Source: a virus
Taxonomy: Duplodnaviria; Heunggongvirae; Uroviricota; Caudoviricetes
Length of the DNA: 49,193 nucleotides
Reading direction: 5' to 3' (one strand)
IMG/VR virus record: IMGVR_UViG_3300045988_148039
This document shows positions 14,383-49,193 of this stretch, piece by piece. The notes beneath the pieces were generated by a model that worked only from the letters and a program-made list of their open reading frames with translations, was not told the DNA's origin and ran no database searches. Every line of letters starts with the position of its first letter. Position 1 is the stretch's first letter. A program made the position numbers and the translations under genes.

Positions 14383-14385
14383 AGG

Positions 14386-18229: not shown

Positions 18230-18235
18230 CAGATT

Positions 18236-18345: not shown

Positions 18346-18400
18346 ATTTTCCGATGTTCCCGATGTCTACAAATCACTAAAACAGCTCAAAATGACACTT

Positions 18401-18778: not shown

Positions 18779-18781
18779 TGT

Positions 18782-31622: not shown

Positions 31623-31693
31623 ACTTTCTAAACCGCGATTGTTGCTAAAAGCGGGAAAAAATATCGTTCAGACGACACAGAGGCAATTCGCAA

Positions 31694-31720
31694 AAACCTC
31701 GGTTTACAGGAAACGGTAAA
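31694..31720. repeat. Invertase crossover site, left copy (AAACCTCGGTTTACAGGAAACGGTAAA)
   Basis: Inverted copy of 34751..34775 with one mismatch in the shared core; encodes ...LGLQETVN... in both fiber reading frames. Confidence 0.8.
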
Positions 31721-32720: not shown

Positions 32721-32721
32721 T

Positions 32722-33277: not shown

Positions 33278-33811
33278 TCATTCTGGTTGTTCGGGAAACG
33301 TTACTGGCAGGCTGGAGGTGTCTGTGGATTCGACTTTCTGCGCGTAAAGCATCCACTCGGTTAATTTTTGTTTATTCTCGTCGGAAATGATGCCCAGCCG
33401 TAGCTGTGAGTCCCATAGCTGGGTTTTATCCCTGACAAGTTGCAACAGGCTTTGCTTTTCATTCTCTGCCTGCTGCCTCTGTTCCTCCTCGGTATAAGTT
33501 CGCTTTATCACTACGCCATCTTTGAACATCCATTTACCCGAAATATCAGCCCGGCGATTTGCTGTAATATCAGGAACCTCAACGACGCTTGCGCCTTCTG
33601 GATTAATTGCTGAAACATCCTTTTCAATACAAATAATAACGTCGTTGTGGTCATAGACCATTTTCAACGTATCAGGCTGAAAGTTCTTTTGTTCCTCATA
33701 CCAGTTTTTCCCATCCTCTGTATAAAGCCATTTGATGTTAAATTGTTTCGTTAGCTGGTATTGCTCTTTTGTTTTAGGGTTGCCAGCAGTAATATTTTTT
33801 AAGTGCATCAT
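33278..33811 (-). CDS. Tail fiber assembly chaperone (for the currently expressed fiber tip)
   Basis: 177 aa starting MMHLKNI; immediately downstream of the fiber gene. Confidence 0.75.
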   Translation of the reverse strand: MMHLKNITAGNPKTKEQYQLTKQFNIKWLYTEDGKNWYEEQKNFQPDTLKMVYDHNDVIICIEKDVSAINPEGASVVEVPDITANRRADISGKWMFKDGVVIKRTYTEEEQRQQAENEKQSLLQLVRDKTQLWDSQLRLGIISDENKQKLTEWMLYAQKVESTDTSSLPVTFPEQPE

Positions 33812-33813: not shown

Positions 33814-36132
33814 TTAAATACTCCCCGCGTTATACCACGTTCCATTAATGCAATACTGAATTGGCCTTGCCTGAGTTGTATCAATTAATTCATCACGGTT
33901 TCCGTTAACTGAACCAGTAACGACATAACCTGACCTGTCAGACCAGCCGGGACCATTCCATGTCTGAACAGATGACAGACCGCCAAGGCGAATACCTGTA
34001 ATAAATCTTGAGTTACATTCTGCCTGCGTGTATGCACCAACATCTCCCGCAGAGGGTTTGCGGGTTGTGGTGTAAAACTCTGACCAGTCAGCTTCAAAGC
34101 CATAACCATCACGCGCTGAACGATAAAAGATACCGCCATTTCTGTAATTCACGCGGAACTGTACAGCAGGGCTGCTCCCCGTATTCATATTGAAGTGGAG
34201 GATTAATGTCGATGCGCCACCAATATTTGCGTTATAGACCCCGCTATTCCAGTTCCAGCCAACAGCTTTATCATTTCCGACAGTGCTTCCTGTCTGCCCT
34301 AAAGCAAATGCAGGCTGCTGGTTTTTCGTATTGTAGTCTCGTCGCCAGCCAGGAGCATAAGCATCACCATGATTAATATAAGTGAATTGAGCGTTAGTAA
34401 TTCCGCCACCGCTGGACGTGCTCGGCGTGGTAACGCGTATGGTCATTGCGCCGCGAGTGCCAATAACTTCTACCACAGCACCTGCAAGACAAATATTTCC
34501 GCAACCTGTATCTGTAATGACCTTATTATTTGCATAAGCCCATGAGCCTTTGCACATCCAGTAAGGATGGTTAAATGCCCCCTGACTCTCCAGCCACGAA
34601 ATGAATTGTGCGGTTGTCCAGGCCTGACTATCGCCACCAATATTCAGCCATGAGCTATATGCGCGGCAGGCCCCAATATTTTTGGTGAAGGTATCTTTTC
34701 CCGGAATATCTGCGCCGTTCTGGTTTTTCTGTAATGCGCCAGAAGCCTGATTTACCGTTTCCTGCAAACCGAGGTATTCGATAACGGCGGCAACGGTAGA
34801 TTTCGCAAGAATATCCCGCCCGACTTTTGTCAGAGTTGCCAGGCTGGCGACATCATTCCCCGTAAAATACGGAAACCTGTCTGCCGCAGTAGCAAGCCCG
34901 GCCAGCGCCGTCAGGGTGGCATCTTTCGGTTGCTTACCCGCAAGCGCGTTAGTCATGGTGGTCGCAAAATTCGGGTCGTTGCCCAACGCCGCAGCCAGCT
35001 CGTTCAGCGTATTCAGTGCGTCAGGCGACGAGTCCACGAGGGCAGCGATCGCAGCCATAACATAAGCCGTGCTTGCGATCTGAGTATTGTTAGTACCTTT
35101 TGGCGCAGTTGGTGTTGTTGGTGTTCCGGTCAGCGCCGGACTGTTCAGGGGCGCTTTCTTGTTCGTTTCATCCATTACCACCTTTACAGCTTTCGATGTC
35201 GCGGCCAGTGTTTCAGACGTGCTGTTGGTGGCACTACTGAGCTGAGTTATTCCCCTTACAGTCAGTGAAGCTACAGGCACATTTGTTATCTGCTCCCACG
35301 AATGCGTGTGATTGGACGGAGCCTTTCCGGCCGCAAGATCATACGCTGCCTTAACAGCCTTTGGTGTTGCTGCTAGCGTTTCAGACGTGCTGTTGGTGGC
35401 ACTACTGAGCTGAACAATCCCTTTTCGCGCTGTGGTAGCGTCCTGTGCGGTGTATTTGGCATTAGCCAGGTCATATGCTGCCTTAACAGCCTTAGGCGTC
35501 GCAGCAAGCGTTTCAGACGTGCTATTGGTGGCGCTGCTAAGTTGAACAAAGCCTTTTGAGGTTAAAGTTGCATCAGGATGATTACGTGATTGTTCATGTT
35601 TCACAATGGCTTGCTTAAGCCGCTTTGCTGAAACAGCAAGGGAATCATCTGTACCGTCATCAATTTCTTGTTCATTGGCAAATCTTGCAACCCCAACAAC
35701 AGTTTCGGTTGCGGGAGGATTAATAAACTCAATATCACCAAATGTAATATTTTTAGTATCAAGAGTCTTGATTGCTATGTCACTTGATATTAAAGCAATA
35801 GTAGATGATGCTTTATTTATTATTGCTTGTTCTTGCGAGTATACAGCAAACAACGTTCCCTTATTTGTATACAATCCTATTGTATGGACAACATACTCAT
35901 CTTTACTATCATCCTTCGCCGTTACATGAATTGTATCAGGGGAAACAACTTTGCCACCTATTGTGGTAAGTCGCTTTATTTCGTTTGTTATATTTGTTTG
36001 TGAGGTTGACGTGACATAATATCTACTACCTAAACCAACAGAAACAATCTCAACTTTATTTGTTCCTGTTTTATTGGCATTAACCAGCTCCTGACGCCCG
36101 GCGTCAGTCATCGTAAATAATAATTTACTCAC
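33814..36132 (-). CDS. Tail fiber protein (constant N-terminal part fused to one of two variable C-terminal parts)
   Basis: 772 aa with three tandem ~30-aa repeats QLSSATNSTSETLAATPKAVK; crossover site lies inside at residues ~454-461. Confidence 0.85.
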   Translation of the reverse strand: MSKLLFTMTDAGRQELVNANKTGTNKVEIVSVGLGSRYYVTSTSQTNITNEIKRLTTIGGKVVSPDTIHVTAKDDSKDEYVVHTIGLYTNKGTLFAVYSQEQAIINKASSTIALISSDIAIKTLDTKNITFGDIEFINPPATETVVGVARFANEQEIDDGTDDSLAVSAKRLKQAIVKHEQSRNHPDATLTSKGFVQLSSATNSTSETLAATPKAVKAAYDLANAKYTAQDATTARKGIVQLSSATNSTSETLAATPKAVKAAYDLAAGKAPSNHTHSWEQITNVPVASLTVRGITQLSSATNSTSETLAATSKAVKVVMDETNKKAPLNSPALTGTPTTPTAPKGTNNTQIASTAYVMAAIAALVDSSPDALNTLNELAAALGNDPNFATTMTNALAGKQPKDATLTALAGLATAADRFPYFTGNDVASLATLTKVGRDILAKSTVAAVIEYLGLQETVNQASGALQKNQNGADIPGKDTFTKNIGACRAYSSWLNIGGDSQAWTTAQFISWLESQGAFNHPYWMCKGSWAYANNKVITDTGCGNICLAGAVVEVIGTRGAMTIRVTTPSTSSGGGITNAQFTYINHGDAYAPGWRRDYNTKNQQPAFALGQTGSTVGNDKAVGWNWNSGVYNANIGGASTLILHFNMNTGSSPAVQFRVNYRNGGIFYRSARDGYGFEADWSEFYTTTRKPSAGDVGAYTQAECNSRFITGIRLGGLSSVQTWNGPGWSDRSGYVVTGSVNGNRDELIDTTQARPIQYCINGTWYNAGSI
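34751..34775. repeat. Invertase crossover site, right copy (TTTACCGTTTCCTGCAAACCGAGGT)
   Basis: Inverted copy of the left site, located inside the fiber gene. Confidence 0.8.
35173..35559. repeat. Three tandem ~75-nt direct repeats encoding the fiber repeat motif
   Basis: Repeated nucleotide blocks (GTTTCAGACGTGCTGTTGGTGGCACTACTGAGCTGA and variants) read directly. Confidence 0.7.
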
Positions 36133-36162
36133 GCTTAATTCCTTGAATAAACAAATTGCGAA

Positions 36163-36744
36163 TTAGCACTCGCCAATTAATCGTATATAAGACACAGGCT
36201 GACAAGCACCAACAATACCGACACCACCAGAAACATTGGCTGCTTGCGAAAATGTAAATAATGTTCTTGCCGACTTTGCGCTCTTGATACTTCTTAACGT
36301 ATCTTCCAACATCTCTTTCGAAGGAACGGCACCATCAAAAGAGTTAATCGAAGCAACAATTGAGGCTGTATATGGTTCGCCAGGTGGTGATGTTTCAAAC
36401 CATTCTGTTATGTTTACCTCTCCACCCAAGCTATTTACTACATCTTCAACCGCTGCCCTTGTACCCTTTATTCGCTTTGTTCGTATTATTGATTTGAAAA
36501 CAGAACGCTTTAACGATACAGGCCAACTATCCCTCCATGTATCAGCATTCCATTGCCAAGCTAAATGATCGAGAACAACTGAGTCAAGGTTATCAACAAC
36601 GCTATATATTTCTGTCTTATATATTAAATTGTTAATTGCTTGTAGTTCATCATCAATAGCTTTCGACATAGCTATCACGTTGGGATCGCTAGCTAAGTTA
36701 GGAGGTAAAACATCCAACAAGCTAACATTAAAGATATCAGCCAT
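36163..36744 (-). CDS. Tail protein, P2 gpI-like (baseplate)
   Basis: 193-aa ORF between the J-like gene and the fiber gene; positional and size match. Confidence 0.6.
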   Translation of the reverse strand: MADIFNVSLLDVLPPNLASDPNVIAMSKAIDDELQAINNLIYKTEIYSVVDNLDSVVLDHLAWQWNADTWRDSWPVSLKRSVFKSIIRTKRIKGTRAAVEDVVNSLGGEVNITEWFETSPPGEPYTASIVASINSFDGAVPSKEMLEDTLRSIKSAKSARTLFTFSQAANVSGGVGIVGACQPVSYIRLIGEC

Positions 36745-37861
36745 CCTCTAACCCCGCATACTGGCAATTTATATTTCTCTCTCTGGCGACCTGTGTCTCT
36801 CCAACCACAGTAAATACAGGACTTGATATTTCTAATCTTTTAGCTCCAGCATTTTTTAAACGTTGAATAATTTCATCTGGATTTATATCTCTTCCCATAA
36901 CTGAACGTTGCCATTGTTTATACTCATCAATAGCTTTCTCAACCTCACCTTGAATTAAAGTTGTTCTGTTTTTGTCCGATGAGTTAATCCAGTATTTAAT
37001 TATTATATCGTATTCAATGCTCTCTGGTTTCTTAACAAGAACTTTATCTGTGAATGGTCGAATATTAGTTGCAGAGAGAACGCTATTTATCTGCTCTAAT
37101 AGTTCATCAGAAGGTATATCTCCGTTCTCTAACAAAGAACGGATTTCTACAGTTCCGGGCGATGGTGTATATACATTCACATCTTTTATATTCTGATTGG
37201 CTGTTCTTGTCCAATATTTATAAGAATCCTCCGGCCCTGCTGTAGACAGTTTTTCCGGCGACAGTTTTATTCTTTCAGCATAATTATCATCTGACTCTGT
37301 ATCAGCACCAGAATTAGATGTTGTTAGATTCCTTACGCTGGAAACATACGGCAACGGAGTCACCAACTCGTTTATTTGCCCAGGTAAAAAGCCATTCCCC
37401 GATAAGCCAGGTATAACAGCATATCCTGAGACTGTACCAACTGTTTTCCCAGCTGGTATTTCCAACAAAACATCTGTTTGGAAAATAACACTATTTCCAG
37501 TTGAAATTTGAGTGCCAGCAGGTATTGTATATATCCCCGATAATTTTGTTGACAGATTAAACTCAAATGTAGTCAAGGCAGATTGAGCTTCCAGCCTAGG
37601 CGTATCCGTCAGATAGCCTATATGGTCGAGATATTCACCTTCACCATATGTAAGAAGGTTTTGTTTTGCAGAAAAATCTATAGCTTTTCTTTGCTGTATA
37701 ATAATCTCACACAATGATAAGATGAATAATCTACGTGGATCAGCAGGTGCTAATGTTTCACCTGTTATACTCTCAAAAGCCCTGATTGAACGAGTTGTTA
37801 TATCAGTCGGGTTAGAATCTGCGAAAGTAATATCTGGCAAACCACCACGCGGCAACGTCAT
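36737..37861 (-). CDS. Baseplate protein, gpJ-like
   Basis: 374 aa, downstream of the W-like gene. Confidence 0.7.
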   Translation of the reverse strand: MTLPRGGLPDITFADSNPTDITTRSIRAFESITGETLAPADPRRLFILSLCEIIIQQRKAIDFSAKQNLLTYGEGEYLDHIGYLTDTPRLEAQSALTTFEFNLSTKLSGIYTIPAGTQISTGNSVIFQTDVLLEIPAGKTVGTVSGYAVIPGLSGNGFLPGQINELVTPLPYVSSVRNLTTSNSGADTESDDNYAERIKLSPEKLSTAGPEDSYKYWTRTANQNIKDVNVYTPSPGTVEIRSLLENGDIPSDELLEQINSVLSATNIRPFTDKVLVKKPESIEYDIIIKYWINSSDKNRTTLIQGEVEKAIDEYKQWQRSVMGRDINPDEIIQRLKNAGAKRLEISSPVFTVVGETQVARERNINCQYAGLEDG

Positions 37862-38178
37862 TCTCTAACTCCTATCACAATTTTTGGCCTAATAAAACCA
37901 TCAGAAACGTCCGTTCTTTCAAAAGTAACAGAATGGATAATCGCTCTAGGCTCAAACTCACTAATTTTTTGAATTATTTCTCGTGTTGCTGTAGCAATAA
38001 AAATTGGACTGGGGCTATCAACAAGACTTGAATTAACTCCTAATTTTCTGGCATATGGTACAGTGCCAATCTGAGTATTAATAATAGTAGAGACATTTTG
38101 CAAAACTTCTTCTACAACTGTTTTGGGCGACCAATCAATCGAGTAAGAAGGTGATGATATGGTAAACGTATTATTCAT
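37858..38178 (-). CDS. Baseplate protein, gpW/gp25-like
   Basis: 106-aa ORF of W size in the W position. Confidence 0.6.
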   Translation of the reverse strand: MNNTFTISSPSYSIDWSPKTVVEEVLQNVSTIINTQIGTVPYARKLGVNSSLVDSPSPIFIATATREIIQKISEFEPRAIIHSVTFERTDVSDGFIRPKIVIGVRE

Positions 38179-38642
38179 AATAATTTACCTAACGCACTTC
38201 TAGTTTTTGACTCTATATTGCCAGCAATATCAACTAATGCTTCTTTCAGAGAGGTCTGTCCGACTTCCTGTAATTTAATGCCGACGATAATCACTCGCGG
38301 ATTCCCAGTTGGACCGAAATAAGTCCATGATTCCTCTATATCTGTAATTATAAAATTACCAAAATACTGAATACCAATTACAACAGGATTTACTTCCTGA
38401 ATTGATTGCATTGTCCTAAGTAATGAAAGCGCAGCCAATGGAACAATGCCAAGTGTTGTATCCAACCGCATATTAAAACTAACTTCATCCAGATCTGGGC
38501 CTATATCCTCCAGAACAGGTTTAAGCCCAATAACATCATGGCGCGCTACACGACGCTTTGACGTCCTTTTAAAATTGTTGAACGTATTCACCACTATTGA
38601 TGAGGCAACAAAAGGCATTGTACCAAGCATACCCACAATCAT
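38175..38642 (-). CDS. Hypothetical baseplate-associated protein
   Basis: 155-aa ORF between the V-like and W-like genes. Confidence 0.4.
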   Translation of the reverse strand: MIVGMLGTMPFVASSIVVNTFNNFKRTSKRRVARHDVIGLKPVLEDIGPDLDEVSFNMRLDTTLGIVPLAALSLLRTMQSIQEVNPVVIGIQYFGNFIITDIEESWTYFGPTGNPRVIIVGIKLQEVGQTSLKEALVDIAGNIESKTRSALGKLL

Positions 38643-39259
38643 GCCTGAGCCTCCGTTGTCGGAGCGTATTCCCCCTGAGCTGTGTGATGGTGGCCTTTAG
38701 ATTTAATCCCATCAACATCTATATCACCACCAACAACCTTAACATCCCCAGAAATTGTAGCTGCAACACCTCCAGCAGAAGATCCTTTCATTCCACCTTT
38801 GAAGGTTAGTAATCCTTCAACTGTAGCATTTCCGGTAATGATGGTTTCTGGAGCATCAATAGTTACGGTTCCTGTGGCCTTAACGGTTACATCTCCGATA
38901 GCATCAACAAGGAGTAAATTAGATTCTCTGTCTATCTCAATACGAGTTCCGTTATTAAATCTAATGACGCGTTTATTAACAGTATTAGATGGCGGCTTCT
39001 GTGTTTCATCATAAAAACTACCAAGAATAAAACCTTGTTGCGGCCCTGCGGGATGAAAGATACACAAAACTTGCTCACCAATATCTGGCATCCAGTAATC
39101 AGCATTCTTATCTGTATTTTTCACAATAACTGATAACTTTGCCGAAGTGACGTTATCCTGATCATCGAAAGTAACTCTTGCTGTAACATCACCATCATCA
39201 ATATCAGAAACAACGCCAACTCTTATAGTCTGACGTAATAATGTTTCTAAATCATTCAT
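38639..39259 (-). CDS. Baseplate spike protein, gpV-like
   Basis: 206 aa with GEQVL and Gly-rich C-terminal region typical of P2 V-type spikes as recalled. Confidence 0.7.
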   Translation of the reverse strand: MNDLETLLRQTIRVGVVSDIDDGDVTARVTFDDQDNVTSAKLSVIVKNTDKNADYWMPDIGEQVLCIFHPAGPQQGFILGSFYDETQKPPSNTVNKRVIRFNNGTRIEIDRESNLLLVDAIGDVTVKATGTVTIDAPETIITGNATVEGLLTFKGGMKGSSAGGVAATISGDVKVVGGDIDVDGIKSKGHHHTAQGEYAPTTEAQA

Positions 39260-39261
39260 AA

Positions 39262-40263
39262 TTAATACCCATTAATTACTCTTCGGACCTCAATCGAGGT
39301 GGTATAACCACTAGCCCCAATTGAATGCACAGCTTTCGATATAAGATATTTTCCAGAAAATGAACCGAATCCGTCCAGATTTATAGTTACACCAGCTACC
39401 AATCTGGTGTCTCCAACCAATACTAAAGATCCGGTATTTTGATATCTATTTTTAAGCCGCAAAGCAGCCTTTGCCTTACGTTTTGCTTCATCTAAATTAG
39501 CGACCAGTTTTCTTATCTTAAGATTCGACCCTTCTTCTACGGATGGATCTACCCAAGTATACGAAAGCGACTTTCTTTTTTTAGGTACGCGATATTTGCA
39601 TGTGCAACTTTTATATAAATCAGTAGATTGTGTGCTAAAGCTATATCTGATTATCTCATCAATACCTAACGTAAGCGTAGCGATAGGATCTTTTTGCTCA
39701 AACATCTCTTGAGCAAATATTATTAATTGGCTATCAGTGACCTTTAACGACAACCCTTCGTCCTGGCAAAGTCGATGGAGAAATTTTAAATCGCTTTCCT
39801 CCATTTGATCTTCACGCGCATAATATGGATTACTATCACCATCAATAAGAAACAACAGCTCAAGGTTAGCTAATTTAGCTATAGAAGTTGCTATATCTTT
39901 AAGAGTTGTTTTCTCCCATGCATTACTTTTTAAATCACGTCTAATGCCTGATGAAACAGGAACAGAAACAGCAGTCACCTCAACAACAGAAGGTGGTCCA
40001 GAGCAAGTTATGCCATCTACCTGGAATTTCCCGCACTCAAGAACGATTTGATTTATAGGCTTAAAGCTCAAATCAATAAAATCACCCTTTTTAGGTGTCC
40101 AGTCTCCAGACCATTTCCCATCATCATTTTTTAATATGATAGAAATATCATCGACCTGACCATCTTCATTATCTGTATAAGACATTGACAAAACATCAGG
40201 TGACATATGAGCGGTAATATTTACATTCTGATATATAACATCAAAAAGCGTTTTACGTAACAC
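39262..40263 (-). CDS. Tail protein, P2 gpD-like
   Basis: 333-aa ORF after the X-like gene; family assignment by position and memory. Confidence 0.6.
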   Translation of the reverse strand: MLRKTLFDVIYQNVNITAHMSPDVLSMSYTDNEDGQVDDISIILKNDDGKWSGDWTPKKGDFIDLSFKPINQIVLECGKFQVDGITCSGPPSVVEVTAVSVPVSSGIRRDLKSNAWEKTTLKDIATSIAKLANLELLFLIDGDSNPYYAREDQMEESDLKFLHRLCQDEGLSLKVTDSQLIIFAQEMFEQKDPIATLTLGIDEIIRYSFSTQSTDLYKSCTCKYRVPKKRKSLSYTWVDPSVEEGSNLKIRKLVANLDEAKRKAKAALRLKNRYQNTGSLVLVGDTRLVAGVTINLDGFGSFSGKYLISKAVHSIGASGYTTSIEVRRVINGY

Positions 40264-40471
40264 TATTGCGTCTCCACGGAGGCAAATTGTTTACTGATAT
40301 TGGCATAACCGGAGCATCAGGAACTTTAAGAATAATTCCCGCAGAAAAAAGCACCGTAAAGCGGTGCTCAGTATTAGCATCAATAAGAAGATAAGACAGG
40401 TACTCATTACCATACAACTTTAACGCGATGCTATCCCATGAGTCCCCTTGAACCGTTCTATAATCATCCAA
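40253..40471 (-). CDS. Tail protein X-like (LysM-like)
   Basis: 72 aa; QGDSWDSIALKLYG...ILKVPD parallels P2 X as recalled. Confidence 0.55.
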   Translation of the reverse strand: MDDYRTVQGDSWDSIALKLYGNEYLSYLLIDANTEHRFTVLFSAGIILKVPDAPVMPISVNNLPPWRRNSVT

Positions 40472-43256: not shown

Positions 43257-43261
43257 TAGTA

Positions 43262-43444
43262 TTAATCCTCATTAAACACATCAATCCATGCGACGATTCG
43301 CCTCAACCGAAGCGAAAGCCAGTAGGATATAGGTGTTGATTGAGATGATTGAGATAGAGAACTCGCGGCCCTCATTATTTGCTTATCAATAGGTTTTTGC
43401 TCATCAAAACCTACGAGAGCAAAAAATTCTGTACCTTTTGACAA
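43262..43444 (-). other. Minus-1 frame extension of the tail assembly chaperone (frameshift product)
   Basis: No ATG start; opens at the slippery site and runs to the stop at 43262. Confidence 0.45.
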
Positions 43445-43692
43445 ACTTTAACAAAGTCTTTCGCTGGCAATCCATTCAGATACTCTATTGGACGACCAAT
43501 ACAGCGAGCAGCCAAGGCTGCATGGACTTTATTATCAAGTGATGTTTGAACTGAAACATACCCTTGAGATTGCAGTAAGTCCGATACCTCTAAAATATCA
43601 CTGCCTTTTAGGTTGTCTAAATCAAGGTTGAGTTCAGTCACCGGCTCAAAGTCTTCAAAACGATATTCTTTACTTAATTTAACGGTTTCCAT
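43411..43692 (-). CDS. Tail assembly chaperone (gpE-like)
   Basis: 93-aa ORF between tube and tape measure genes; ends just after T TTT TTG. Confidence 0.55.
   Translation of the reverse strand: METVKLSKEYRFEDFEPVTELNLDLDNLKGSDILEVSDLLQSQGYVSVQTSLDNKVHAALAARCIGRPIEYLNGLPAKDFVKVCQKVQNFLLS
43420..43426 (-). other. Candidate -1 slippery heptamer T TTT TTG
   Basis: Read directly; in-frame position near the 3' end of the chaperone ORF. Confidence 0.45.
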
Positions 43693-43701
43693 TTTGTCAC
43701 C

Positions 43702-44223
43702 TTATAAACCTAAATCATCACGAACGCTTTTTAATATATCTTCACCATCAAAGATACAAATAAAGTTCAACTTATCAATTTCCAGGACTTCTTTTCCATC
43801 AATAAATAATTTGATATAGAGAACTTCAAATTCATTCTCTGAATCAGTAGCCTTTGCCACCTGTAGCGAACCTAAATCCAGTTTTTTAGGGTTTAGCTTC
43901 ATTGAAGCCCGAATAGGAACCGTTTTATATTTTCCTGTTCCTGCATCATAAACCTGCTGGCTACCGCGAAAATCTACCTGATGAGATGAGGATAGAAATA
44001 ATTTTGTACCAGCAGAGGTCAGAGTTCGCCATTTAAGAGAGACAGTCATTGGTTTGAAATGCCCCAGCGTTCCGCTCTCAAGCTCTCCAGCGATACCTGC
44101 ACCACTAACAGTTTCTGTCATCATCTCAATTGATGGCAGCTTTGCGTCAGCAACACCGATAATACGGTTTCCCTCACCGTATACTGTAAAGTTAATAAGT
44201 CTCTCAGGAATTTGATTGCTCAA
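43702..44223 (-). CDS. Tail tube protein
   Basis: 173-aa ORF immediately downstream of the sheath gene. Confidence 0.7.
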   Translation of the reverse strand: MSNQIPERLINFTVYGEGNRIIGVADAKLPSIEMMTETVSGAGIAGELESGTLGHFKPMTVSLKWRTLTSAGTKLFLSSSHQVDFRGSQQVYDAGTGKYKTVPIRASMKLNPKKLDLGSLQVAKATDSENEFEVLYIKLFIDGKEVLEIDKLNFICIFDGEDILKSVRDDLGL

Positions 44224-44239
44224 AGCAACCTCCTATTAT

Positions 44240-45703
44240 TTATTCAGAAAACAAGTTCAGCAGATAATCAGGATTATATTCCATGACGAACTCTATATCT
44301 CTGGCAGGTGAGAACGGTGTCATTTTTACATGGAATTTAACAATCCCGTCCATTAATGACGTAATCGTGTTTTCTGACTGATCAAAGGTAACAACACCAC
44401 CTGCAATATCCTGATTACCTGTGAGGCCGTTAAGCCAAATATTCGCACTTGTAACAATCGATTCAATTAATCGACGGTTTGCAGGATTGTCTATTTTTGA
44501 CCAATGCGAAAGAATTAACGTATTACCCACCCAGTTAAACATACGTCGGCAAACACGAAATGCGTCTTTGGGGTCTGTAGATGTTGGATAAATAGCATTA
44601 CGGTTTCCCCATGATTTCCAACCATCAAAATTAAGGCTTGTTACAATCCCCTGTCCATTTAAGTAGTTTGCCTGGCTAATGTTAAGCCATACTTCACTGC
44701 CATCTTTACGTACAGCACCGTCCATCTGTAGTTTTATATTTGACGGAGAACGTGATGGAATATCACCATACTGACTATCCAGCAAGCATGTTGCGGCCGC
44801 TAAATGGGTTGAGTGATGGTAAATATTGTCACCAAGTTTCACCATCGGCCAGCACACTGTCTGGTTAGCGGCCATGTGATTATTGTTCTGTTTCCATTCA
44901 GGAACAGCCGAGTAATCACTGATAGTAGATTTATCGGTCGGCGCATCCGTTATAGCTTCTGCTTTGAACAATTCACTAATCAGCGCGGCTTTAGCCGCCA
45001 TTAGCTGACCAACTTCACTATCAGAACTAAATCCAGGTGCAATCACTTGTCCAGGAACTAACTTGAAGCGGGGATACACATCTGACAGTAACTCAAGCCC
45101 TGTATTGGCTTTAGTGTTGGAATCCACACCACCGATAATGTCATTTTTAGTTACGGCACCGGGATCAAGATGCGTATAACTAACCTTAAGAGTAGCGTCT
45201 TTTTCGGTAATTTTTCCTCCGCTAATAGCTGTAATGACCGTATAGCCATTATCATCCAGCGCCAGCACATAATCGGTATCAACCGTTAACCCAGGTGAAT
45301 CACCATCTGCTTTTTTCACAACAACAGATTTATATAAGACACCATCGTTAGAGAGCGTACCTTTCCCGCCAGAAAGTTTTACTAACTCATCAGTAACGTC
45401 TTTCTTATGCTTTGCTGGATCAAGCACATTGATAAATACAACTGGCGCAACACCATATATTCCAAATGCGACTTTAATTACTTCGCTTAAAGTATATTTC
45501 TCGAAGTTTGTGCTATATCCTATTTTAGATACGGCCTCTGCGTATGTATAAGCAATGATAGGTTTATTTACCGCTGAGGCTGGATCTTCTAACTGATTAA
45601 CAGGAGCCGTACCAAATGCGACAATCAACCCAGCACTAACTTGCACTGGAGGAGTTATAGATGTAGCCAGCTCAGATATATAAATACCGTGGCGATATCC
45701 CAT
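44240..45703 (-). CDS. Tail sheath protein
   Basis: 487 aa; N-terminus MGYRHGIYISE resembles the conserved start of P2 FI-type sheaths. Confidence 0.8.
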   Translation of the reverse strand: MGYRHGIYISELATSITPPVQVSAGLIVAFGTAPVNQLEDPASAVNKPIIAYTYAEAVSKIGYSTNFEKYTLSEVIKVAFGIYGVAPVVFINVLDPAKHKKDVTDELVKLSGGKGTLSNDGVLYKSVVVKKADGDSPGLTVDTDYVLALDDNGYTVITAISGGKITEKDATLKVSYTHLDPGAVTKNDIIGGVDSNTKANTGLELLSDVYPRFKLVPGQVIAPGFSSDSEVGQLMAAKAALISELFKAEAITDAPTDKSTISDYSAVPEWKQNNNHMAANQTVCWPMVKLGDNIYHHSTHLAAATCLLDSQYGDIPSRSPSNIKLQMDGAVRKDGSEVWLNISQANYLNGQGIVTSLNFDGWKSWGNRNAIYPTSTDPKDAFRVCRRMFNWVGNTLILSHWSKIDNPANRRLIESIVTSANIWLNGLTGNQDIAGGVVTFDQSENTITSLMDGIVKFHVKMTPFSPARDIEFVMEYNPDYLLNLFSE

Positions 45704-45993
45704 TATTTAATCTCCATGATAGAAGAAGAAACTCTAGAGTACATTACATACTCGACACTGGTTTTATCAGAAAGTCTTTTTTCTGCATCTGCAAAATCAC
45801 TGGTTGCCACAAACAAACACTTTGCACCAGGAATATGTGATATTAATTTTTCACACTCTGGAGATAAGCCATTCTTAAATAGTTTATGCTTCAAAATTGA
45901 GAGTTGAGGGATTGTTGGTCCTATATATACAAATGTTTGAGCAACATCTTCCTTCTTTTCTATATCTTCTTTACTACTTTTCTTATTAGCCAT
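45703..45993 (-). CDS. Hypothetical protein (head-tail region)
   Basis: 96-aa ORF. Confidence 0.35.
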   Translation of the reverse strand: MANKKSSKEDIEKKEDVAQTFVYIGPTIPQLSILKHKLFKNGLSPECEKLISHIPGAKCLFVATSDFADAEKRLSDKTSVEYVMYSRVSSSIMEIK

Positions 45994-46479
45994 TTAGATA
46001 AACTCCTGAGACTGAATATTCTGAGGCTTTAATACTAGCCACGTTCCAGTTGCTTCCGTTATCCAATATGGATATGGTTGATCATCAAACATTCGCCATC
46101 TGATATCACCCTGAAAGAGAAATTTCTCTTCAAGTAAAGGCTTCTCCTGAAAATGAAACATCATCCTTTCAAGAAGAGCCATTACCCATTCATATCCAGT
46201 ATGGTCCTCACAAAAACCACCTAAAAGAAACTTAACCTTAACTTCATCCGTTTCAGGCTGCATTCCTCCTTCCGTGGGCCTGATAATCACATGAGGAAAT
46301 TCTGGCGGTTTATCTGGAGATGGTTGTGATTTAGGAGGCAAGTACCCTTTAAATATTGTTGGAACAAACAATTTAATATCGCTGTCTGTTTCATCATAAG
46401 GAGGCCCCTGCACTAATAAATCATGGAAAACCTCATGTTCCAACCGATTTTTTATTGCATCTATCAAAAGATTAATCAA
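45994..46479 (-). CDS. Hypothetical protein (possible tail completion/neck)
   Basis: 161-aa ORF between capsid and sheath genes. Confidence 0.4.
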   Translation of the reverse strand: MINLLIDAIKNRLEHEVFHDLLVQGPPYDETDSDIKLFVPTIFKGYLPPKSQPSPDKPPEFPHVIIRPTEGGMQPETDEVKVKFLLGGFCEDHTGYEWVMALLERMMFHFQEKPLLEEKFLFQGDIRWRMFDDQPYPYWITEATGTWLVLKPQNIQSQEFI

Positions 46480-46820
46480 ATCGGCATTCCTCTGTTAGTA
46501 TTAACAGTGAGAGTTATTTCCAATACACCAACATTATCTGATACTTCATCAACAATATAATTTTTACCGTTGATTTTCATTGACTGGTCTTTGACAGGGA
46601 GAACAGGAAAATCTTTTCTTGAAACAAATAATATTATTTGCCCTTGATTTATTCCCTCTGCAAACTCAGCATATGAGCGTTTATTCCGCTCATGAATAAG
46701 GTCTGTATCAATAACGGCAAGGATATCCTTGCCGTCTATGTTATATGTATCGGCAAACTCTTTTTCATTGAGGAATATTGCAGAAATATCTTGCGCTATA
46801 ACCTCTTTGAAGGAGTTCAT
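46476..46820 (-). CDS. Hypothetical protein (possible head-tail connector)
   Basis: 114-aa ORF, positional inference. Confidence 0.4.
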   Translation of the reverse strand: MNSFKEVIAQDISAIFLNEKEFADTYNIDGKDILAVIDTDLIHERNKRSYAEFAEGINQGQIILFVSRKDFPVLPVKDQSMKINGKNYIVDEVSDNVGVLEITLTVNTNRGMPI

Positions 46821-47212
46821 TACTTCTTATTACCTTTTTTTTGCGTTGATTTTTTCGCATTACTGGTATCAGAAGTAGCTACAGATTCAGATGAATCATC
46901 AGCAACCGTTTCCTCATTGCCGCCATCATCCTCAAACTCAACCTCGAATACACAGCTACCCGCCTCCGTTCGCGTAATCAACCCCGCGTCCACAGCATCA
47001 TTAACAGCAGATGCGTATCCATGCTCAAAAGCTAACTTAGCAGCATCATAGCCCCCAGCCGCTGCCAAATCACCATCCTCTTCGGTGGCAATAGCATGTC
47101 CTGACGCAATCAGTTCGGCAATCCTGGAGTTATCCATTAGCCCATTAAGCAAACGGCCCGCTTTTAGCGAGCCGTGGCTTATCGTATCAATGTTTTTAAC
47201 CAGTCTGGCCAT
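46820..47212 (-). CDS. Hypothetical protein with acidic middle and Lys-rich C-terminus
   Basis: 130-aa ORF immediately downstream of the major capsid gene. Confidence 0.4.
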   Translation of the reverse strand: MARLVKNIDTISHGSLKAGRLLNGLMDNSRIAELIASGHAIATEEDGDLAAAGGYDAAKLAFEHGYASAVNDAVDAGLITRTEAGSCVFEVEFEDDGGNEETVADDSSESVATSDTSNAKKSTQKKGNKK

Positions 47213-48256
47213 TTAAACCACCTTAGCCACCAGATAGGCGTCAGCTACACCAGGATTAGGCAGTGGAGATGACTTCATAGCAACATAACGGCCTCCCGCC
47301 TTACGAGATACCCAGGCGTCTGGAACTCGTGGTGACTCAACAATCGTCAGAGACTTTTCAACCTCATCTACAAGTTCTACAGCTCCATACAGCATCGTTC
47401 CCCGCCCCGGAGAGCCAAGGAGAATCTTATCCTCCGGCACTAATGGTTCTGGCTTTCCTGTTTTATCACTGAGAATAAGCTCGTCGTAACCATAAAAATC
47501 GAGTCCCTCAACATTACCATAATGAGTTACGCCTTCTTCTAAGTCCTCTGGCTTAATATACCCAAACTCTTTTCGGCGATTATCAAGATATTTAGTTACT
47601 GCTTCATTTTTAACGAATGCATCAACAACTTTTGCCCCCATTACGGCAACACGAGGAGTAAAACCTGAAGTTAGTGATACACGACGTTTCCAGTTGCGAA
47701 CATTGACCAACGGATCTGATTTTGCTGCACTCCATAAATCATCACCTGTCAGTTCAAGATATGGTTTATCTCCTTCCTCTTCAGGCCAAAAATAAACTGT
47801 GTTATCCACTCCTTCACCAACAATATCAACCTGCCCCGTAAACAAGACTTGTGCACACATCCATTCTTCACGGCGGTTAACCATTTCATCAAGCTCAAGC
47901 AAATCTTTACCTAATTGCTCGGCGGCTCGTTCTGCTGGCGATTTTGCGTTGTAAATATTCTCACCCGGAAGCCTGTTTAAAAGCAGCTCTGCTGTTGTTA
48001 CCAAATCAGGTGCAACAAGTGGTGGCTCCAGAGTTCTCGTTACAAAGCCGCGTCGCTCAACGGTTTTTGAGCCAAAACCTTTACCAACAAACGGAGCCAT
48101 AGTACGGCCACCGCGAACAAAATCCAGATCAACTTTCTTTGAATTAAAGGTCTGAACACCAGGAAAAAAAGTACGAAGAAGAAAACGACGAGCCTTGAAA
48201 TTCTGAATAACAGGCTCAAGCATTGTACGTCGTTCAAAAATATCAATATTCGGCAT
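47213..48256 (-). CDS. Major capsid protein (lambda gpE-like)
   Basis: 347 aa; N-terminal ...RFLLRTFFPG... parallels lambda E ...LFLRLFF...; follows the decoration-like gene. Confidence 0.75.
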   Translation of the reverse strand: MPNIDIFERRTMLEPVIQNFKARRFLLRTFFPGVQTFNSKKVDLDFVRGGRTMAPFVGKGFGSKTVERRGFVTRTLEPPLVAPDLVTTAELLLNRLPGENIYNAKSPAERAAEQLGKDLLELDEMVNRREEWMCAQVLFTGQVDIVGEGVDNTVYFWPEEEGDKPYLELTGDDLWSAAKSDPLVNVRNWKRRVSLTSGFTPRVAVMGAKVVDAFVKNEAVTKYLDNRRKEFGYIKPEDLEEGVTHYGNVEGLDFYGYDELILSDKTGKPEPLVPEDKILLGSPGRGTMLYGAVELVDEVEKSLTIVESPRVPDAWVSRKAGGRYVAMKSSPLPNPGVADAYLVAKVV

Positions 48257-48276
48257 AAAAATACGACCTCTTTATA

Positions 48277-48660
48277 TTATGCAGATGGATTTTGTTGTGC
48301 GGTATTAAGGAATATTCCAACCTTCCGGCAAGCCAGATATACATCGGCAACCTTTGCTGATTCAGGAAGGATAACCGCACGTGCATTGAACATTCCGGTC
48401 AACCATGCTGTTCCTACTTGCGCTGAATCAGTCGCATCAATACTGTGTTGAGCAATACAATACGGTTCTTTTGCCACTCCCTCTCCAGAGAGATTTATCG
48501 GAGCCACAGTGACAACATTTGTTGTCTGATCAATACTGACAAAAGCAAGTAACTCACCTCGTTTTACTTTACCGCTGGCAAGTTTAATACTTGTTGAAAT
48601 TGCTGGCATACCACCAGAAATAATCAGATTATCTGGTTCAAATGAAAAAGACTCTCGCAT
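48277..48660 (-). CDS. Head decoration protein (gpD-like)
   Basis: 127-aa ORF between protease/scaffold and major capsid genes. Confidence 0.55.
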   Translation of the reverse strand: MRESFSFEPDNLIISGGMPAISTSIKLASGKVKRGELLAFVSIDQTTNVVTVAPINLSGEGVAKEPYCIAQHSIDATDSAQVGTAWLTGMFNARAVILPESAKVADVYLACRKVGIFLNTAQQNPSA

Positions 48661-48669
48661 AAACTCACC

Positions 48670-49193
48670 TTAATTTTTATCGCGGTTTTTAAATACTGAT
48701 CCAATAACATTTTTTACTGCTTCAGCTTGTTTATCGCCGTTGTTTTCTGGTTGATTAACATCAACTGAATCATTCACCTCATTTGCGTCTTCTTGACGTT
48801 GATTAAGAAAGTTTTTGTTACGCGCTCGCTCTGCATTCATAATTTCCAAAGCAAGTTCAGCAGCAGAAACACCCGTTTTGAATTTTGCATTCTTAACTAG
48901 GTCGTCATGACCTGGAATCACGCTATTCTCGATTGTCTCAATGCGCTCGCGCTCTGATTTAACGCCCTCGTCTTTACCAGCATTAAAAACCTGATTGTAT
49001 AATTCTGGATGTTTATTCTTTAATTCATCAAGAGTCACAACATCGTCCTCATTTTGTTCATTTAATTCAGTAGATAATTCATTTTTATTTTGTGGCAACT
49101 TTGCGAGCGAATCAGGTAATTTTGAAAACCTTGATGCTTCAAAAGTTATTCCATTGAGCGAAAGCATCCCTTCCTTTATGGAAGCAGATAGCC
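48670..49193 (-). CDS. Head protease/scaffold, C-terminal part of the junction-spanning gene
   Basis: Same frame as the 1..618 fragment through the 77-bp duplication; charged C-terminal half typical of a scaffold region. Confidence 0.65.
   Translation of the reverse strand, partial: LSASIKEGMLSLNGITFEASRFSKLPDSLAKLPQNKNELSTELNEQNEDDVVTLDELKNKHPELYNQVFNAGKDEGVKSERERIETIENSVIPGHDDLVKNAKFKTGVSAAELALEIMNAERARNKNFLNQRQEDANEVNDSVDVNQPENNGDKQAEAVKNVIGSVFKNRDKN
49117..49193. repeat. Terminal direct duplication (copy of 1..77)
   Basis: Exact identity with the window start. Confidence 0.9.

What the first reader, a model, noticed from the sequence alone, without database searches (positions are those of the whole stretch)
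33814..49193. Mosaic virion: lambda-type head genes joined to P2/Mu-type contractile tail genes
Small and large terminase, W, portal, protease/scaffold, decoration and capsid genes follow lambda order, while the tail genes (sheath, tube, frameshifted chaperone, tape measure, X, D, V, W, J, I, fiber with invertible tip) follow the myovirus pattern. The junction between the two modules falls in four small unassigned genes at 45703..47212.
Basis: partly seen in the sequence, partly recalled or inferred. Interest (0 to 1): 0.35.

Follow-up and report, generated by a model that had tools for sequence, protein, structure and literature searches.

The report
Lambda-like head, contractile tail phage-plasmid
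The genes are real and correctly read, but they are the ordinary virion gene block of a common, already sequenced E. coli/Yersinia phage-plasmid whose head-plus-contractile-tail combination is ancient and widespread, not a fresh mosaic.

Summary
The window is a complete 49,116-bp circular phage-plasmid (77-bp assembly overlap; IncFII RepA). It is about 98% identical to Yersinia phages vB_YpM_39/41/44 and to the 48.5-kb plasmid of E. coli ATCC 25922.

However, terminase, the W-slot gene and portal lie at 611-4855, outside the stated span. A gpU-like gene (38175-38642) was overlooked.

The head is lambda-like only in part. Large terminase, portal and capsid belong to lambda's Pfam families. Small terminase and decoration protein share lambda's PHROG families. 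The W-slot protein (DUF6148) and the protease (ClpP type, not S49) do not.

The tail proteins match P2 families but stand in Mu order. The -1 frameshift site T-TTT-TTG and a Mu-type invertible fibre segment are confirmed.

Of the four "unassigned" genes, one is gpFII-like, one has the tail-terminator fold, one is a conserved unknown, and one is unassigned.

The same 20-odd-gene block is collinear in Vibrio, Acinetobacter, Pararheinheimera and Paenibacillus myoviruses. The join is therefore old and co-inherited. The only comparator with a different head subtype (KLER1-1) places the exchange point just after the capsid gene. Lambda/P2 chimeras have been described in the literature for years. The finding is ordinary.

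The parts
4846..5436 (-). ParB-like nuclease immediately upstream of the small terminase
   Evidence: PF02195 3.5e-8; phrog_620 9e-75. It is 59-62% identical to the gene at the same place in Vibrio X29 and vB_VpaM_XM1.
4295..4855 (-). Small terminase subunit, Nu1-type at PHROG level
   Evidence: phrog_57 7e-42; lambda Nu1 falls in the same phrog_57. No BLAST hit to lambda. Relatives annotate the start at 4846.
2433..4289 (-). Large terminase, lambda gpA family (ATPase plus nuclease)
   Evidence: PF05876 7e-76 and PF20454 2e-84. 28% identity to lambda A over 97% of the length, 3e-59.
2182..2421 (-). Head-tail adaptor in the lambda W position, but of a different family (DUF6148)
   Evidence: PF19645 9e-16; phrog_118 'head-tail adaptor' 1e-28. 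Lambda W is phrog_75. No PDB sequence match.
611..2185 (-). Portal protein, lambda family
   Evidence: PF05136 7e-101. 27% identity to lambda B, 3e-43.
1..642 (-). 5' part of the prohead protease/scaffold gene (bases 1-77 repeat 49117-49193)
   Evidence: Circularising the window gives one ORF of up to 362 aa. PF00574 ClpP 1e-31 covers residues 41-185; the C-terminal half is presumed scaffold.
48670..49193 (-). 3' part of the ClpP-type prohead protease/scaffold gene
   Evidence: RefSeq relatives name it 'head maturation protease, ClpP-related'.
48277..48660 (-). Head decoration protein, gpD-type at PHROG level
   Evidence: phrog_49 1e-24; lambda D is also phrog_49. No Pfam hit and no PDB sequence hit.
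47213..48256 (-). Major capsid protein, lambda gpE family
   Evidence: PF03864 2e-50. 46% identity to the Vibrio X29 capsid. No BLAST hit to lambda E.
46820..47212 (-). 130-aa protein of unknown role in the variable slot after the capsid gene (lambda FI position)
   Evidence: phrog_5541, unknown function. Conserved N-terminal ~100 aa and a disordered, charged tail. AlphaFold pLDDT 62 and no Foldseek match. No homologue in X29, XM1, KLER1-1, HFM1 or Lily.
46476..46820 (-). 114-aa gpFII-like head-tail attachment (head closure) protein
   Evidence: phrog_2551 3e-45, plus a weak phrog_82 hit (lambda FII's family) at 3.6e-5. 18 of 54 family members hit PF05354 Phage_attach. Conserved in all relatives examined.
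45994..46479 (-). 161-aa tail terminator
   Evidence: AlphaFold pLDDT 79. Foldseek against PDB returns tail terminators: lambda gpU, T5 p142, T4 gp15, Mu gp37 (TM 0.56) and the R2 pyocin collar. phrog_2581.
45703..45993 (-). 96-aa conserved protein of unknown role just upstream of the sheath gene
   Evidence: phrog_4089 2e-40. A homologue sits at the same place in X29, XM1, KLER1-1, HFM1 and Lily. No Pfam or PDB hit.
44240..45703 (-). Contractile tail sheath
   Evidence: phrog_23 8e-96. R2 pyocin sheath PA0622 5e-15. P2 FI 28% over 30% of the length. No Pfam hit at E 0.01.
43702..44223 (-). Tail tube, P2 FII family
   Evidence: PF04985 4e-44. 28% identity to P2 FII.
43262..43692 (-). Tail assembly chaperone pair made by a -1 frameshift (E: 43411-43692; E' extension to 43262)
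   Evidence: PF10109 3e-5. The slippery heptamer T-TTT-TTG at 43426-43420 lies 2 codons before the 0-frame stop, and the -1 frame stays open to the TAA at 43264-43262.
40464..43256 (-). Tape measure protein
   Evidence: PF10145 9e-21.
40253..40471 (-). gpX-like small baseplate protein
   Evidence: PF05489 2e-4, just below the curated cut-off. P2 X 25% identity, 8e-3; X29 homologue 46%.
39262..40263 (-). Baseplate hub, gpD family
   Evidence: PF05954 2e-9. P2 D 28% identity, 2e-14.
38639..39259 (-). Central spike, gpV family
   Evidence: PF04717 3e-7 and PF18715 4e-7. P2 V 27% identity, 7e-16.
   Evidence: PF06995 2e-22; phrog_76 4e-40. Same position in X29, KLER1-1, HFM1 and Lily.
37858..38178 (-). 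gpW/gp25-like baseplate wedge protein
   Evidence: PF04965 6e-5, below the curated cut-off. P2 W 26% identity, 2e-3.
36737..37861 (-). Baseplate wedge, gpJ family
   Evidence: PF04865 5e-55.
36163..36744 (-). Baseplate wedge, gpI family
   Evidence: PF09684 4e-27.
33814..36132 (-). Tail fibre: constant part about 34779-36132, exchangeable tip 33814 to about 34778
   Evidence: PF03406 1e-58. P2 H 46% identity over 80% of the length; tip 97-98% identical to Mu S'.
33278..33811 (-). Tail fibre assembly protein in the expressed orientation
   Evidence: PF02413 2e-36. 99% identical to Mu U'.
31692..33249 (+). Silent alternative fibre tip (to 32720) and its assembly protein (32722-33249)
   Evidence: 70% identity to the Mu S C-terminal part and 91% to Mu U; PF02413 6e-36.
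31693..31747 (.). Left inverted repeat with a gix-type crossover core
   Evidence: It aligns with Mu gixL/gixR; shared core AAACCTCGGTTTACAGGAAACGGTAAA.
34724..34778 (.). Right inverted repeat with a gix-type crossover core, inside the fibre gene
31068..31622 (-). Serine DNA invertase
   Evidence: PF00239 3e-44 and PF02796 2e-14. 56% identical to Mu Gin.

Best explanation
The region is the complete late (virion) gene block of a temperate myovirus that is maintained as a plasmid. It is not a recent splice of a lambda head onto a P2 or Mu tail.

It belongs to an old, widespread lineage of contractile-tailed phages that carry a lambda-superfamily packaging and head set: a gpA-type terminase, a lambda-family portal, a gpE-type capsid and a gpD-type decoration protein. 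This sub-lineage additionally has a ClpP-type protease/scaffold and a DUF6148 adaptor.

Inferred assembly pathway:
1. The terminase packages DNA into a prohead that the ClpP-type protease matures and the decoration protein stabilises.
2. The W-slot adaptor and the gpFII-like protein close the portal.
3. The tail is built separately. A hub forms from gpD, gpV, gpX and the gpU-like protein, with wedges of gpW, gpJ and gpI.
4. The tape measure, with the E/E+E' chaperones made by a -1 frameshift, sets the tube length. Tube and sheath polymerise and are capped by the 161-aa terminator.
5. The capped tail docks on the gpFII-like ring.

Host range is switched by a Mu-type invertible fibre segment.

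Shown here: gene identities, gene order, the frameshift signal, the recombination sites and co-inheritance of the block. Inferred from homologous systems: the assembly order and the contacts between proteins.
For: Identity of the element:
- Exact 77-bp terminal overlap, so the sequence is a circle.
- IncFII RepA at 29906-30886.
- About 98% nucleotide identity to Yersinia phages vB_YpM_39/41/44.
- 98.4% identity to the 48,488-bp plasmid of E. coli ATCC 25922. The element is in 72 of 5,426 complete E. coli genomes, and 87 of 88 places are on plasmids.

Gene families.

Co-inheritance of head and tail:
- tblastn with the capsid and with the sheath returns largely the same phages: Vibrio X29, phi 2, Rostov 7, XM1 and PVP-XSN, then HFM1, EalM-137, Lily, phiERICV, Saumur, and Faecalibacterium, Fusobacterium and Roseburia phages.
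- Capsid and sheath identities correlate across 21 shared records (Spearman 0.77; 0.59 for 13 less redundant ones).
- All genes from small terminase to gpI are collinear with X29 and XM1 at 24-66% identity, with no step across 45703-47212.
- The same order holds in KLER1-1, HFM1 and Lily.
- Close relatives are 99.3-99.7% identical across 44001-47000, so there is no recent breakpoint there.

Other support:
- vB_VpaM_XM1 has a contractile tail by electron microscopy (PMC11432961).
- Frameshift heptamer.
- gix sites aligned with those of Mu.
Against: - No particle of this exact element was examined here. Myovirus morphology rests on the names of near-identical isolates and on a relative with 46-54% identity.
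- The neck lacks the gpZ/Ne1-type gene that every more distant relative examined has, so assembly may differ in detail.
- Two of the four small genes (130 aa and 96 aa) have no assigned role.
- At 27-30% identity the capsid family also occurs in siphoviruses (Xylella Sano and Salvo, BcepNazgul). At great depth, therefore, heads and tails of these families have been recombined.
Confidence: 0.85

Rival explanations
1. The element is a mosaic formed by joining a lambda-derived head module to a P2/Mu-derived tail module, with the recombination joint somewhere in the four small genes 45703-47212.
For: - Lambda gives BLAST hits only to head genes (TerL, portal), and P2 only to tail genes.
- G+C content is 0.38-0.41 over the tail and 0.42-0.43 over the head.
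- In Pararheinheimera phage KLER1-1 the same tail (sheath 49%, tube 55%, J 46%) sits behind a different, truly lambda-type head: gpW, an S49 protease and the gpD family. Its TerL and portal are only 35% identical and its capsid 28%. Head sub-types have therefore been exchanged on this tail.
- The slot after the capsid gene differs in every relative.
Against: - The join is not specific to this element. The same head-neck-tail block is collinear in phages of several bacterial phyla.
- Identity to X29 runs smoothly across the supposed junction: capsid 46%, s114 43%, s161 35%, s96 33%, sheath 54%.
- Three of the four genes are conserved neck genes found with this sheath in all relatives, including KLER1-1.
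- Similarity to lambda and P2 is only 25-31%, so neither is a donor.
Confidence: 0.25
2. The block is a decayed prophage remnant, or a tailocin-like particle cluster, carried by a plasmid. It no longer builds infectious virions.
For: PLSDB lists such records simply as non-mobilizable plasmids. A gpZ/Ne1-type neck gene is missing.
Against: - Every virion ORF is intact, with overlapping start/stop junctions.
- A full packaging and head set is present, which a tailocin lacks.
- About 98% identical genomes are deposited as complete genomes of phages isolated on Yersinia pestis EV76.
Confidence: 0.05

Closest known systems
Yersinia phages vB_YpM_39/41/44 (OR545053-55), E. coli vB_EcoM-613R2/473R2, and the 48,488-bp plasmid of E. 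coli ATCC 25922 / Seattle 1946 (e.g. NZ_CP117232, NZ_CP149501)
   Same: Same element: 97-98% nucleotide identity over the virion block, with the same gene order including the four small genes, the invertase and RepA.
   Different: - Fibre region and alternative tip are only 88-92% identical or partly unaligned.
- The capsid/protease segment is about 95% identical, against more than 99% in the neck and sheath.
- Accessory genes differ.
Vibrio phages X29, phi 2, Rostov 7 and vB_VpaM_XM1 (proposed family 'Weiviridae', PMC11432961)
   Same: Collinear block from the ParB-like nuclease through gpI at 24-66% amino-acid identity. They share the DUF6148-slot adaptor, the ClpP-type protease, and the neck genes phrog_2551, phrog_2581 and phrog_4089. 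XM1 is a myovirus by electron microscopy.
   Different: - They carry a gpZ/Ne1 gene (phrog_27) between the gpFII-like gene and the terminator. The window does not.
- A different gene sits after the capsid gene.
- Their fibres are unrelated and there is no invertible segment.
- They carry integrases rather than RepA-based plasmid maintenance.
Pararheinheimera phage vB_PsoM_KLER1-1
   Same: Same tail and the same neck trio, in the same order.
   Different: Its head is of the strict lambda type: gpW PF02831, an S49 protease and gpD PF02924. Its head genes are far more diverged from the window, with TerL and portal at 35% and capsid at 28%.
Phage lambda head genes (Nu1-A-W-B-C/Nu3-D-E-FI-FII-Z-U)
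   Same: - Same order.
- gpA, portal and gpE Pfam families.
- Nu1 and gpD PHROG families.
- A gpFII-like protein and a gpU-fold terminator in the corresponding slots.
   Different: - W-slot protein of another family.
- ClpP-type instead of S49 protease.
- No FI homologue and no Z homologue.
- Only TerL and portal are detectable by BLAST, at 27-28%.
Phage P2 tail genes and the R2 pyocin
   Same: - Sheath, tube, tape measure, X, D, V, W, J and I give 25-31% BLAST hits to P2; gpU matches by Pfam.
- Same T-TTT-TTG frameshift heptamer as reported for P2 E/E+E' (the P2 heptamer is from my own knowledge).
- The sheath matches pyocin PA0622.
   Different: - P2 splits these genes into the V-W-J-I-H-G and FI-FII-E-T-U-D operons, with X, R and S elsewhere. 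Here they form one run, sheath first.
- No gpR or gpS homologue was detected.
Phage Mu tail order and G segment; lambda/P2 chimeric phages (Wolbachia WO, Xylella XfP1/XfP2; PMC3235987)
   Same: - Sheath-first order ending in a fibre, an assembly protein, an invertible segment and an invertase.
- gix cores align with those of Mu.
- The expressed tip and assembly protein are 97-99% identical to Mu S'/U'.
- WO phages were described as lambda-like packaging and head genes joined to P2-like baseplate genes.
   Different: - Apart from the fibre tip, only gpJ gives a weak hit to Mu.
- The invertase is 56% identical to Gin.
- The constant fibre part is about 450 aa and P2 H-like.

Membership tests
Lambda-type packaging/head module | Large terminase of the gpA family (ATPase plus nuclease domains) | tested here: met
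   PF05876 7e-76 and PF20454 2e-84. 28% identity to lambda A.
Lambda-type packaging/head module | Nu1-type small terminase | tested here: met
   The window protein and lambda Nu1 both fall in phrog_57 (7e-42 and 1e-76). There is no Pfam Nu1 hit and no BLAST hit, so this holds at remote-homology level only.
Lambda-type packaging/head module | gpW-family head-tail joining protein between terminase and portal | tested here: not met
   The position is kept, but the family is DUF6148/phrog_118. Lambda W is phrog_75, and KLER1-1 has PF02831. The fold was not tested.
Lambda-type packaging/head module | Portal of the lambda family | tested here: met
   PF05136 7e-101.
Lambda-type packaging/head module | gpC-type S49 protease with nested scaffold (Nu3) | tested here: not met
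   The best family is ClpP PF00574 (1e-31). S49 scores 24.4 bits against a cut-off of 24.9. Lambda C is phrog_53. No BLAST hit to lambda C. An internal scaffold start was not tested.
Lambda-type packaging/head module | gpD-type decoration protein and gpE-type capsid protein | tested here: met
   Capsid PF03864 2e-50. The decoration protein is in phrog_49, as is lambda D, but it does not hit the Pfam HDPD model.
P2-type contractile tail | Sheath, tube, tape measure and baseplate proteins X, D, V, U, W, J, I of the P2 families | tested here: met
   Pfam hits. BLAST hits to nine P2 proteins. The sheath is supported by phrog_23 and pyocin PA0622. X, W and the chaperone score just below Pfam's curated cut-offs.
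P2-type contractile tail | E/E+E' chaperone pair made by a -1 frameshift | tested here: met
   T-TTT-TTG at 43426-43420, with the -1 frame open to 43262. This is sequence evidence only; translation was not tested.
P2-type contractile tail | P2 operon layout, and the gpR/gpS tail completion proteins | tested here: not met
   The genes form a single sheath-first run. There are no tblastn hits for P2 R or S. The terminator is a phrog_2581 protein.
Mu-type tail | Gene order sheath-tube-chaperone-tape measure-hub-spike-wedge-fibre-assembly protein | tested here: met
   Compare with the Mu table.
Mu-type tail | Sequence relatedness to the Mu tail proteins L, M, gp43-48 | tested here: not met
   Only the gpJ/gp47 pair gives a weak hit (28% over 41% of the length, 1e-3). 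Sheath, tube, hub and spike are not significant.
Mu/P1-type invertible fibre (G/C) segment | Two oppositely oriented tip-plus-assembly-protein cassettes between inverted gix sites, next to a serine invertase | tested here: met
   Inverted repeats at 31693-31747 and 34724-34778 align with Mu gixL/gixR. Cassettes are 70-99% identical to Mu S, U, S' and U'. The invertase is 56% identical to Gin. Inversion itself was not observed.
X29/XM1-like myoviruses ('Weiviridae', proposed) | Shared collinear virion block with detectable identity in nearly every gene | tested here: met
   22 of 25 virion proteins give significant, collinear hits at 24-66% identity.
X29/XM1-like myoviruses ('Weiviridae', proposed) | Genome-wide relatedness at family level (replication and lysogeny modules) | not tested
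   Only the virion block was compared. X29 and XM1 carry integrases, whereas the window carries RepA.

The most novel reading that the evidence does not exclude
This enterobacterial phage-plasmid lineage has lost the gpZ/Ne1-type neck gene. The five more distant relatives examined (Vibrio X29 and vB_VpaM_XM1, Pararheinheimera KLER1-1, Acinetobacter HFM1, Paenibacillus phage Lily) all keep it between the gpFII-like gene and the terminator. The lineage nevertheless still forms infectious myovirus particles. Either Ne1 is dispensable for this neck, or its role has passed to a lineage-specific protein: the 130-aa protein in the variable slot after the capsid gene, or the conserved uncharacterised 96-aa phrog_4089 protein next to the sheath gene.
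Probability: 0.25. Interest if true: 0.3.

Novelty: already known. Interest (0 to 1): 0.12.

Why it matters
It matters little as a discovery. The element has been sequenced many times. It is even the 48.5-kb plasmid of the quality-control strain E. coli ATCC 25922. Lambda-like head genes combined with P2-like contractile-tail genes have been described in the literature for Wolbachia WO and Xylella prophages.

The practical value is better annotation. Most of these genes are 'hypothetical protein' in the deposited Yersinia phage records, and in RefSeq the four neck genes are still 'hypothetical'. Two of the four can now be named: a gpFII-like head closure protein and a tail terminator.

The comparison also shows that this head-tail combination is a stable, ancient lineage. 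Head sub-types appear to be swapped just downstream of the capsid gene.

Tried and rejected
- **Single-sequence PDB searches.** Searches with the four small proteins, the W-slot protein and the decoration protein gave only chance-level hits.
- **Profile searches for the 114-aa family.** A profile of the family against PDB sequences gave nothing significant; Gifsy-2 2pp6 scored only E 0.36. hhalign of that profile against lambda FII alone was weak, at probability 6.6%. The gpFII assignment therefore rests on Pfam hits in 18 of 54 family members and on a weak PHROG hit.
- **The 130-aa protein.** The AlphaFold model was poor (pLDDT 62, pTM 0.31) and Foldseek found nothing. It stays unassigned.
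- **The pSLy3/SSU5 phage-plasmid groups.** I considered whether the element belongs there. Those are SSU5-related elements, so this was rejected.
- **Yersinia phage HQ103.** It turned out to be an unrelated Peduoviridae phage.
- **The structurally solved 'XM1' (PMC10457771).** Its gene numbering and its 479-aa tape measure do not fit vB_VpaM_XM1 (PP580404). I used it only for general neck architecture.
- **Literature on this phage-plasmid.** Searches for a paper describing this particular group found none.

Full report
**What the window is.** The first and last 77 bases are identical, so the window is a circular assembly of 49,116 bp cut inside one gene. That gene is the prohead protease. It runs on the minus strand from about 642 down to 1 and continues at 49193 down to 48670.

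The element carries an IncFII-type RepA at 29906-30886, several ParB-domain genes and a tRNA-Met. It is about 98% identical to the complete genomes of Yersinia phages vB_YpM_39, 41 and 44, and to the partial E. coli prophage records vB_EcoM-613R2 and 473R2.

In PLSDB, 374 plasmid records match, many of them E. coli plasmids of about 48 kb. Among complete E. coli genomes, 72 of 5,426 carry it, and 87 of 88 places are on plasmids. These include the 48,488-bp plasmid of ATCC 25922 / Seattle 1946 at 98.4% identity. The window is therefore a known, fairly common enterobacterial phage-plasmid.

Head side:
- Small terminase 4295-4855 (phrog_57).
- Large terminase 2433-4289 (gpA ATPase and nuclease domains, E 7e-76 and 2e-84).
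- A 79-aa gene in the W position, 2182-2421.
- Portal 611-2185 (lambda family, 7e-101).
- Protease/scaffold across the window ends.
- Decoration protein 48277-48660 (phrog_49).
- Capsid 47213-48256 (Phage_cap_E, 2e-50).

These rest.

Tail side:
- Sheath 44240-45703. It has no Pfam hit, but matches phrog_23 at 8e-96 and the R2 pyocin sheath at 5e-15.
- Tube, chaperone, tape measure, X, D, V, W/gp25, J, I, fibre and assembly protein.

These rest.

Three corrections are needed:
1. Terminase, the W-slot gene and portal lie outside the stated span 33814-49193.
2. A gpU-like gene at 38175-38642 was missed (PF06995, 2e-22).
3. The invertible fibre segment and its invertase reach down to 31068.

**Frameshift and invertible tip.** The chaperone ORF ends ...AAT TTT TTG CTC TCG TAG. 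The heptamer T-TTT-TTG (43426-43420) is a classic -1 slippery site. From my own knowledge, it is the heptamer reported for P2 E/E+E'. After a -1 slip the frame stays open to the TAA at 43264-43262, giving a product of about 142 aa.

Inverted repeats at 31693-31747 and 34724-34778 flank about 3.0 kb. They align with Mu gixL and gixR and share the core AAACCTCGGTTTACAGGAAACGGTAAA. Inside lie two opposed cassettes:
- The expressed tip and assembly protein are 97% and 99% identical to Mu S' and U'.
- The silent pair is 70% and 91% identical to Mu S and U.

The neighbouring serine invertase is 56% identical to Gin. This fibre tip has a G+C content of 0.48, against 0.38-0.41 for the rest of the tail. 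It is the one clearly recent mosaic piece in the region.

**How lambda-like is the head?** Against lambda itself, only TerL (28%) and portal (27%) give BLAST hits. At family level:
- The capsid is gpE-type.
- Lambda Nu1 and the window's small terminase share phrog_57.
- Lambda D and the window's decoration protein share phrog_49.
- The W-slot protein is DUF6148/phrog_118, whereas lambda W is phrog_75.
- The protease is ClpP-type, not the S49 type of gpC.

So the order is lambda's and five of the seven core proteins are of lambda's families. Two are positional analogues only.

**How P2- or Mu-like is the tail?** Sheath, tube, tape measure, X, D, V, W, J and I all give 25-31% hits to P2. Mu gives only one weak hit, to gp47, apart from the fibre tip.

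The order is sheath, tube, chaperone, tape measure, hub proteins, wedge proteins, fibre. That is Mu's order, not P2's split operons. No P2 gpR or gpS homologue was found.

**The four small genes.**
- *114 aa, 46476-46820.* It is phrog_2551 with a weak hit to phrog_82, lambda FII's family. Its family has 739 cluster representatives. Of 54 aligned members, 18 hit Pfam Phage_attach (the gpFII family) and 3 hit Gifsy-2. I call it a gpFII-like head closure protein. Direct profile comparisons to lambda FII and to PDB sequences were weak.
- *161 aa, 45994-46479.* It was modelled at pLDDT 79. Foldseek returns tail terminators almost exclusively: lambda gpU, T5 p142, T4 gp15, Mu gp37 (TM 0.56) and the R2 pyocin collar. 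I call it the tail terminator. Its conserved but poorly ordered C-terminal residues fit the sheath-binding extension described for myophage terminators (PMC11915804). That last point is inference.
- *96 aa, 45703-45993.* It is phrog_4089, with no known fold or function. It sits just before the sheath gene, as Mu gp38 does; gp38 was not resolved in the Mu structure.
- *130 aa, 46820-47212.* It has a conserved N-terminal part and a disordered, charged tail. It gave a poor model with no structural match. It occupies lambda FI's position, but I found no evidence of relatedness.

**Is it a mosaic, and where is the joint?** tblastn with the capsid and with the sheath retrieves largely the same phages:
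- Vibrio X29, phi 2, Rostov 7, vB_VpaM_XM1 and PVP-XSN (capsid 45-46%, sheath 50-54%).
- Then Acinetobacter HFM1, Exiguobacterium EalM-137, Paenibacillus Lily and phiERICV, and Clostridium Saumur.
- Then Faecalibacterium, Fusobacterium and Roseburia phages.

Capsid and sheath identities correlate across the shared records, with Spearman 0.77 for 21 records and 0.59 for 13 less redundant ones.

Gene-by-gene comparison shows the block from small terminase to gpI is collinear in X29 and XM1 at 24-66% identity, with no step across the neck: capsid 46%, 114-aa 43%, 161-aa 35-39%, 96-aa 33%, sheath 50-54%. HFM1 and the Firmicute phage Lily show the same order. Close relatives are 99.3-99.7% identical across 44001-47000.

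The head-tail combination is therefore ancient and co-inherited, not a feature of this element. vB_VpaM_XM1 has a contractile tail by electron microscopy (PMC11432961).

One relative is informative about exchange. Pararheinheimera phage KLER1-1 has the same tail (sheath 49%, tube 55%, J 46%) and the same neck trio (phrog_2551, phrog_2581, phrog_4089). Its head, however, is of the strict lambda type: gpW PF02831, an S49 protease and gpD PF02924. Its head genes are much further from the window, with TerL and portal at 35% and capsid at 28%.

Head sub-types have therefore been swapped on this tail, upstream of the neck trio. The slot right after the capsid gene holds a different gene in every relative. 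I infer that any module boundary lies at the 130-aa slot and the 5' end of the gpFII-like gene, not across all four genes. This rests on a single comparator, so my confidence is moderate.

**A difference from all distant relatives.** X29, XM1, KLER1-1, HFM1 and Lily each carry a gpZ/Ne1-type gene (phrog_27 or Pfam Minor_tail_Z) between the gpFII-like gene and the terminator. The window and its close relatives have none, and tblastn finds none elsewhere in the window.

**Comparison with what is known.** Lambda-like packaging and head genes joined to P2-like tail genes were described for Wolbachia phage WO, and noted for Xylella XfP1 and XfP2 (PMC3235987). WO records also appear among the sheath hits.

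The finding is a correct reading of an ordinary, already sequenced phage-plasmid. The 'mosaic' is the normal architecture of a large, old phage lineage.

**Verdict.** Novelty: already known. Interest: low.

Noticed in passing
window 1-77 and 49117-49193; 29906-30886: The window is a whole circular replicon (exact 77-bp terminal overlap, 49,116 bp) with an IncFII-type RepA. It is a phage-plasmid, 98.4% identical over the tail and neck genes to the 48,488-bp plasmid of E. coli ATCC 25922. It is present in 72 of 5,426 complete E. coli genomes, almost always as a plasmid.
   Followed up: partly
window 45994-46820 (junction of the 114-aa and 161-aa genes): The gpZ/Ne1-type neck gene (phrog_27 or Minor_tail_Z) is missing here. 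Vibrio X29 and XM1, KLER1-1, HFM1 and Lily all carry one between the gpFII-like gene and the terminator. tblastn finds none anywhere in the window.
   Followed up: partly
window 8961-9674 (minus strand): A 237-aa ORF far from the tail genes has an N-terminal ~145 aa that are 42-45% identical to the Mu U/U' tail-fibre assembly proteins (partial Pfam Caudo_TAP hit). RefSeq relatives call it ead/Ea22-like.
   Followed up: no
window 4846-5436, 6730-8109, 8103-8726: There are three ParB N-terminal-domain proteins. One sits directly upstream of the small terminase and is conserved at that place in Vibrio X29 and XM1. One is fused to a methyltransferase domain.
   Followed up: no
window 12066-12141 (minus strand): A tRNA-Met gene (anticodon CAT). 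It is also annotated in the related Yersinia phages.
   Followed up: no
window 33814-34791 and 33278-33811, versus 31692-33249: The expressed fibre tip and assembly protein are 97-99% identical to Mu S'/U'. The silent cassette is only 70-91% identical to Mu S/U, and the invertase only 56% identical to Gin. The two halves of the invertible segment therefore have different recent histories. G+C here is 0.48, against 0.38-0.41 in the rest of the tail.
   Followed up: partly
window 47001-48000 and 1-1000: The capsid/protease segment is 94.6-95.3% identical to the ATCC 25922-type plasmid and to vB_YpM_39. The adjacent neck and sheath region (44001-47000) is 99.3-99.7% identical. This is a local allelic replacement within the head genes.
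   Followed up: no
L009 (Pararheinheimera phage KLER1-1) 4024-8571 versus 8770-19532: KLER1-1 joins a strict lambda-type head (gpW, S49 protease, gpD, gpE) to the same neck trio and tail as the window. This is evidence that head sub-types are exchanged on this tail lineage.
   Followed up: partly
window 44240-45703: The sheath protein matches no Pfam-A model at E 0.01, although it is clearly a sheath by PHROG, PDB and BLAST evidence. RefSeq relatives label it only 'phage tail protein' in some records.
   Followed up: yes
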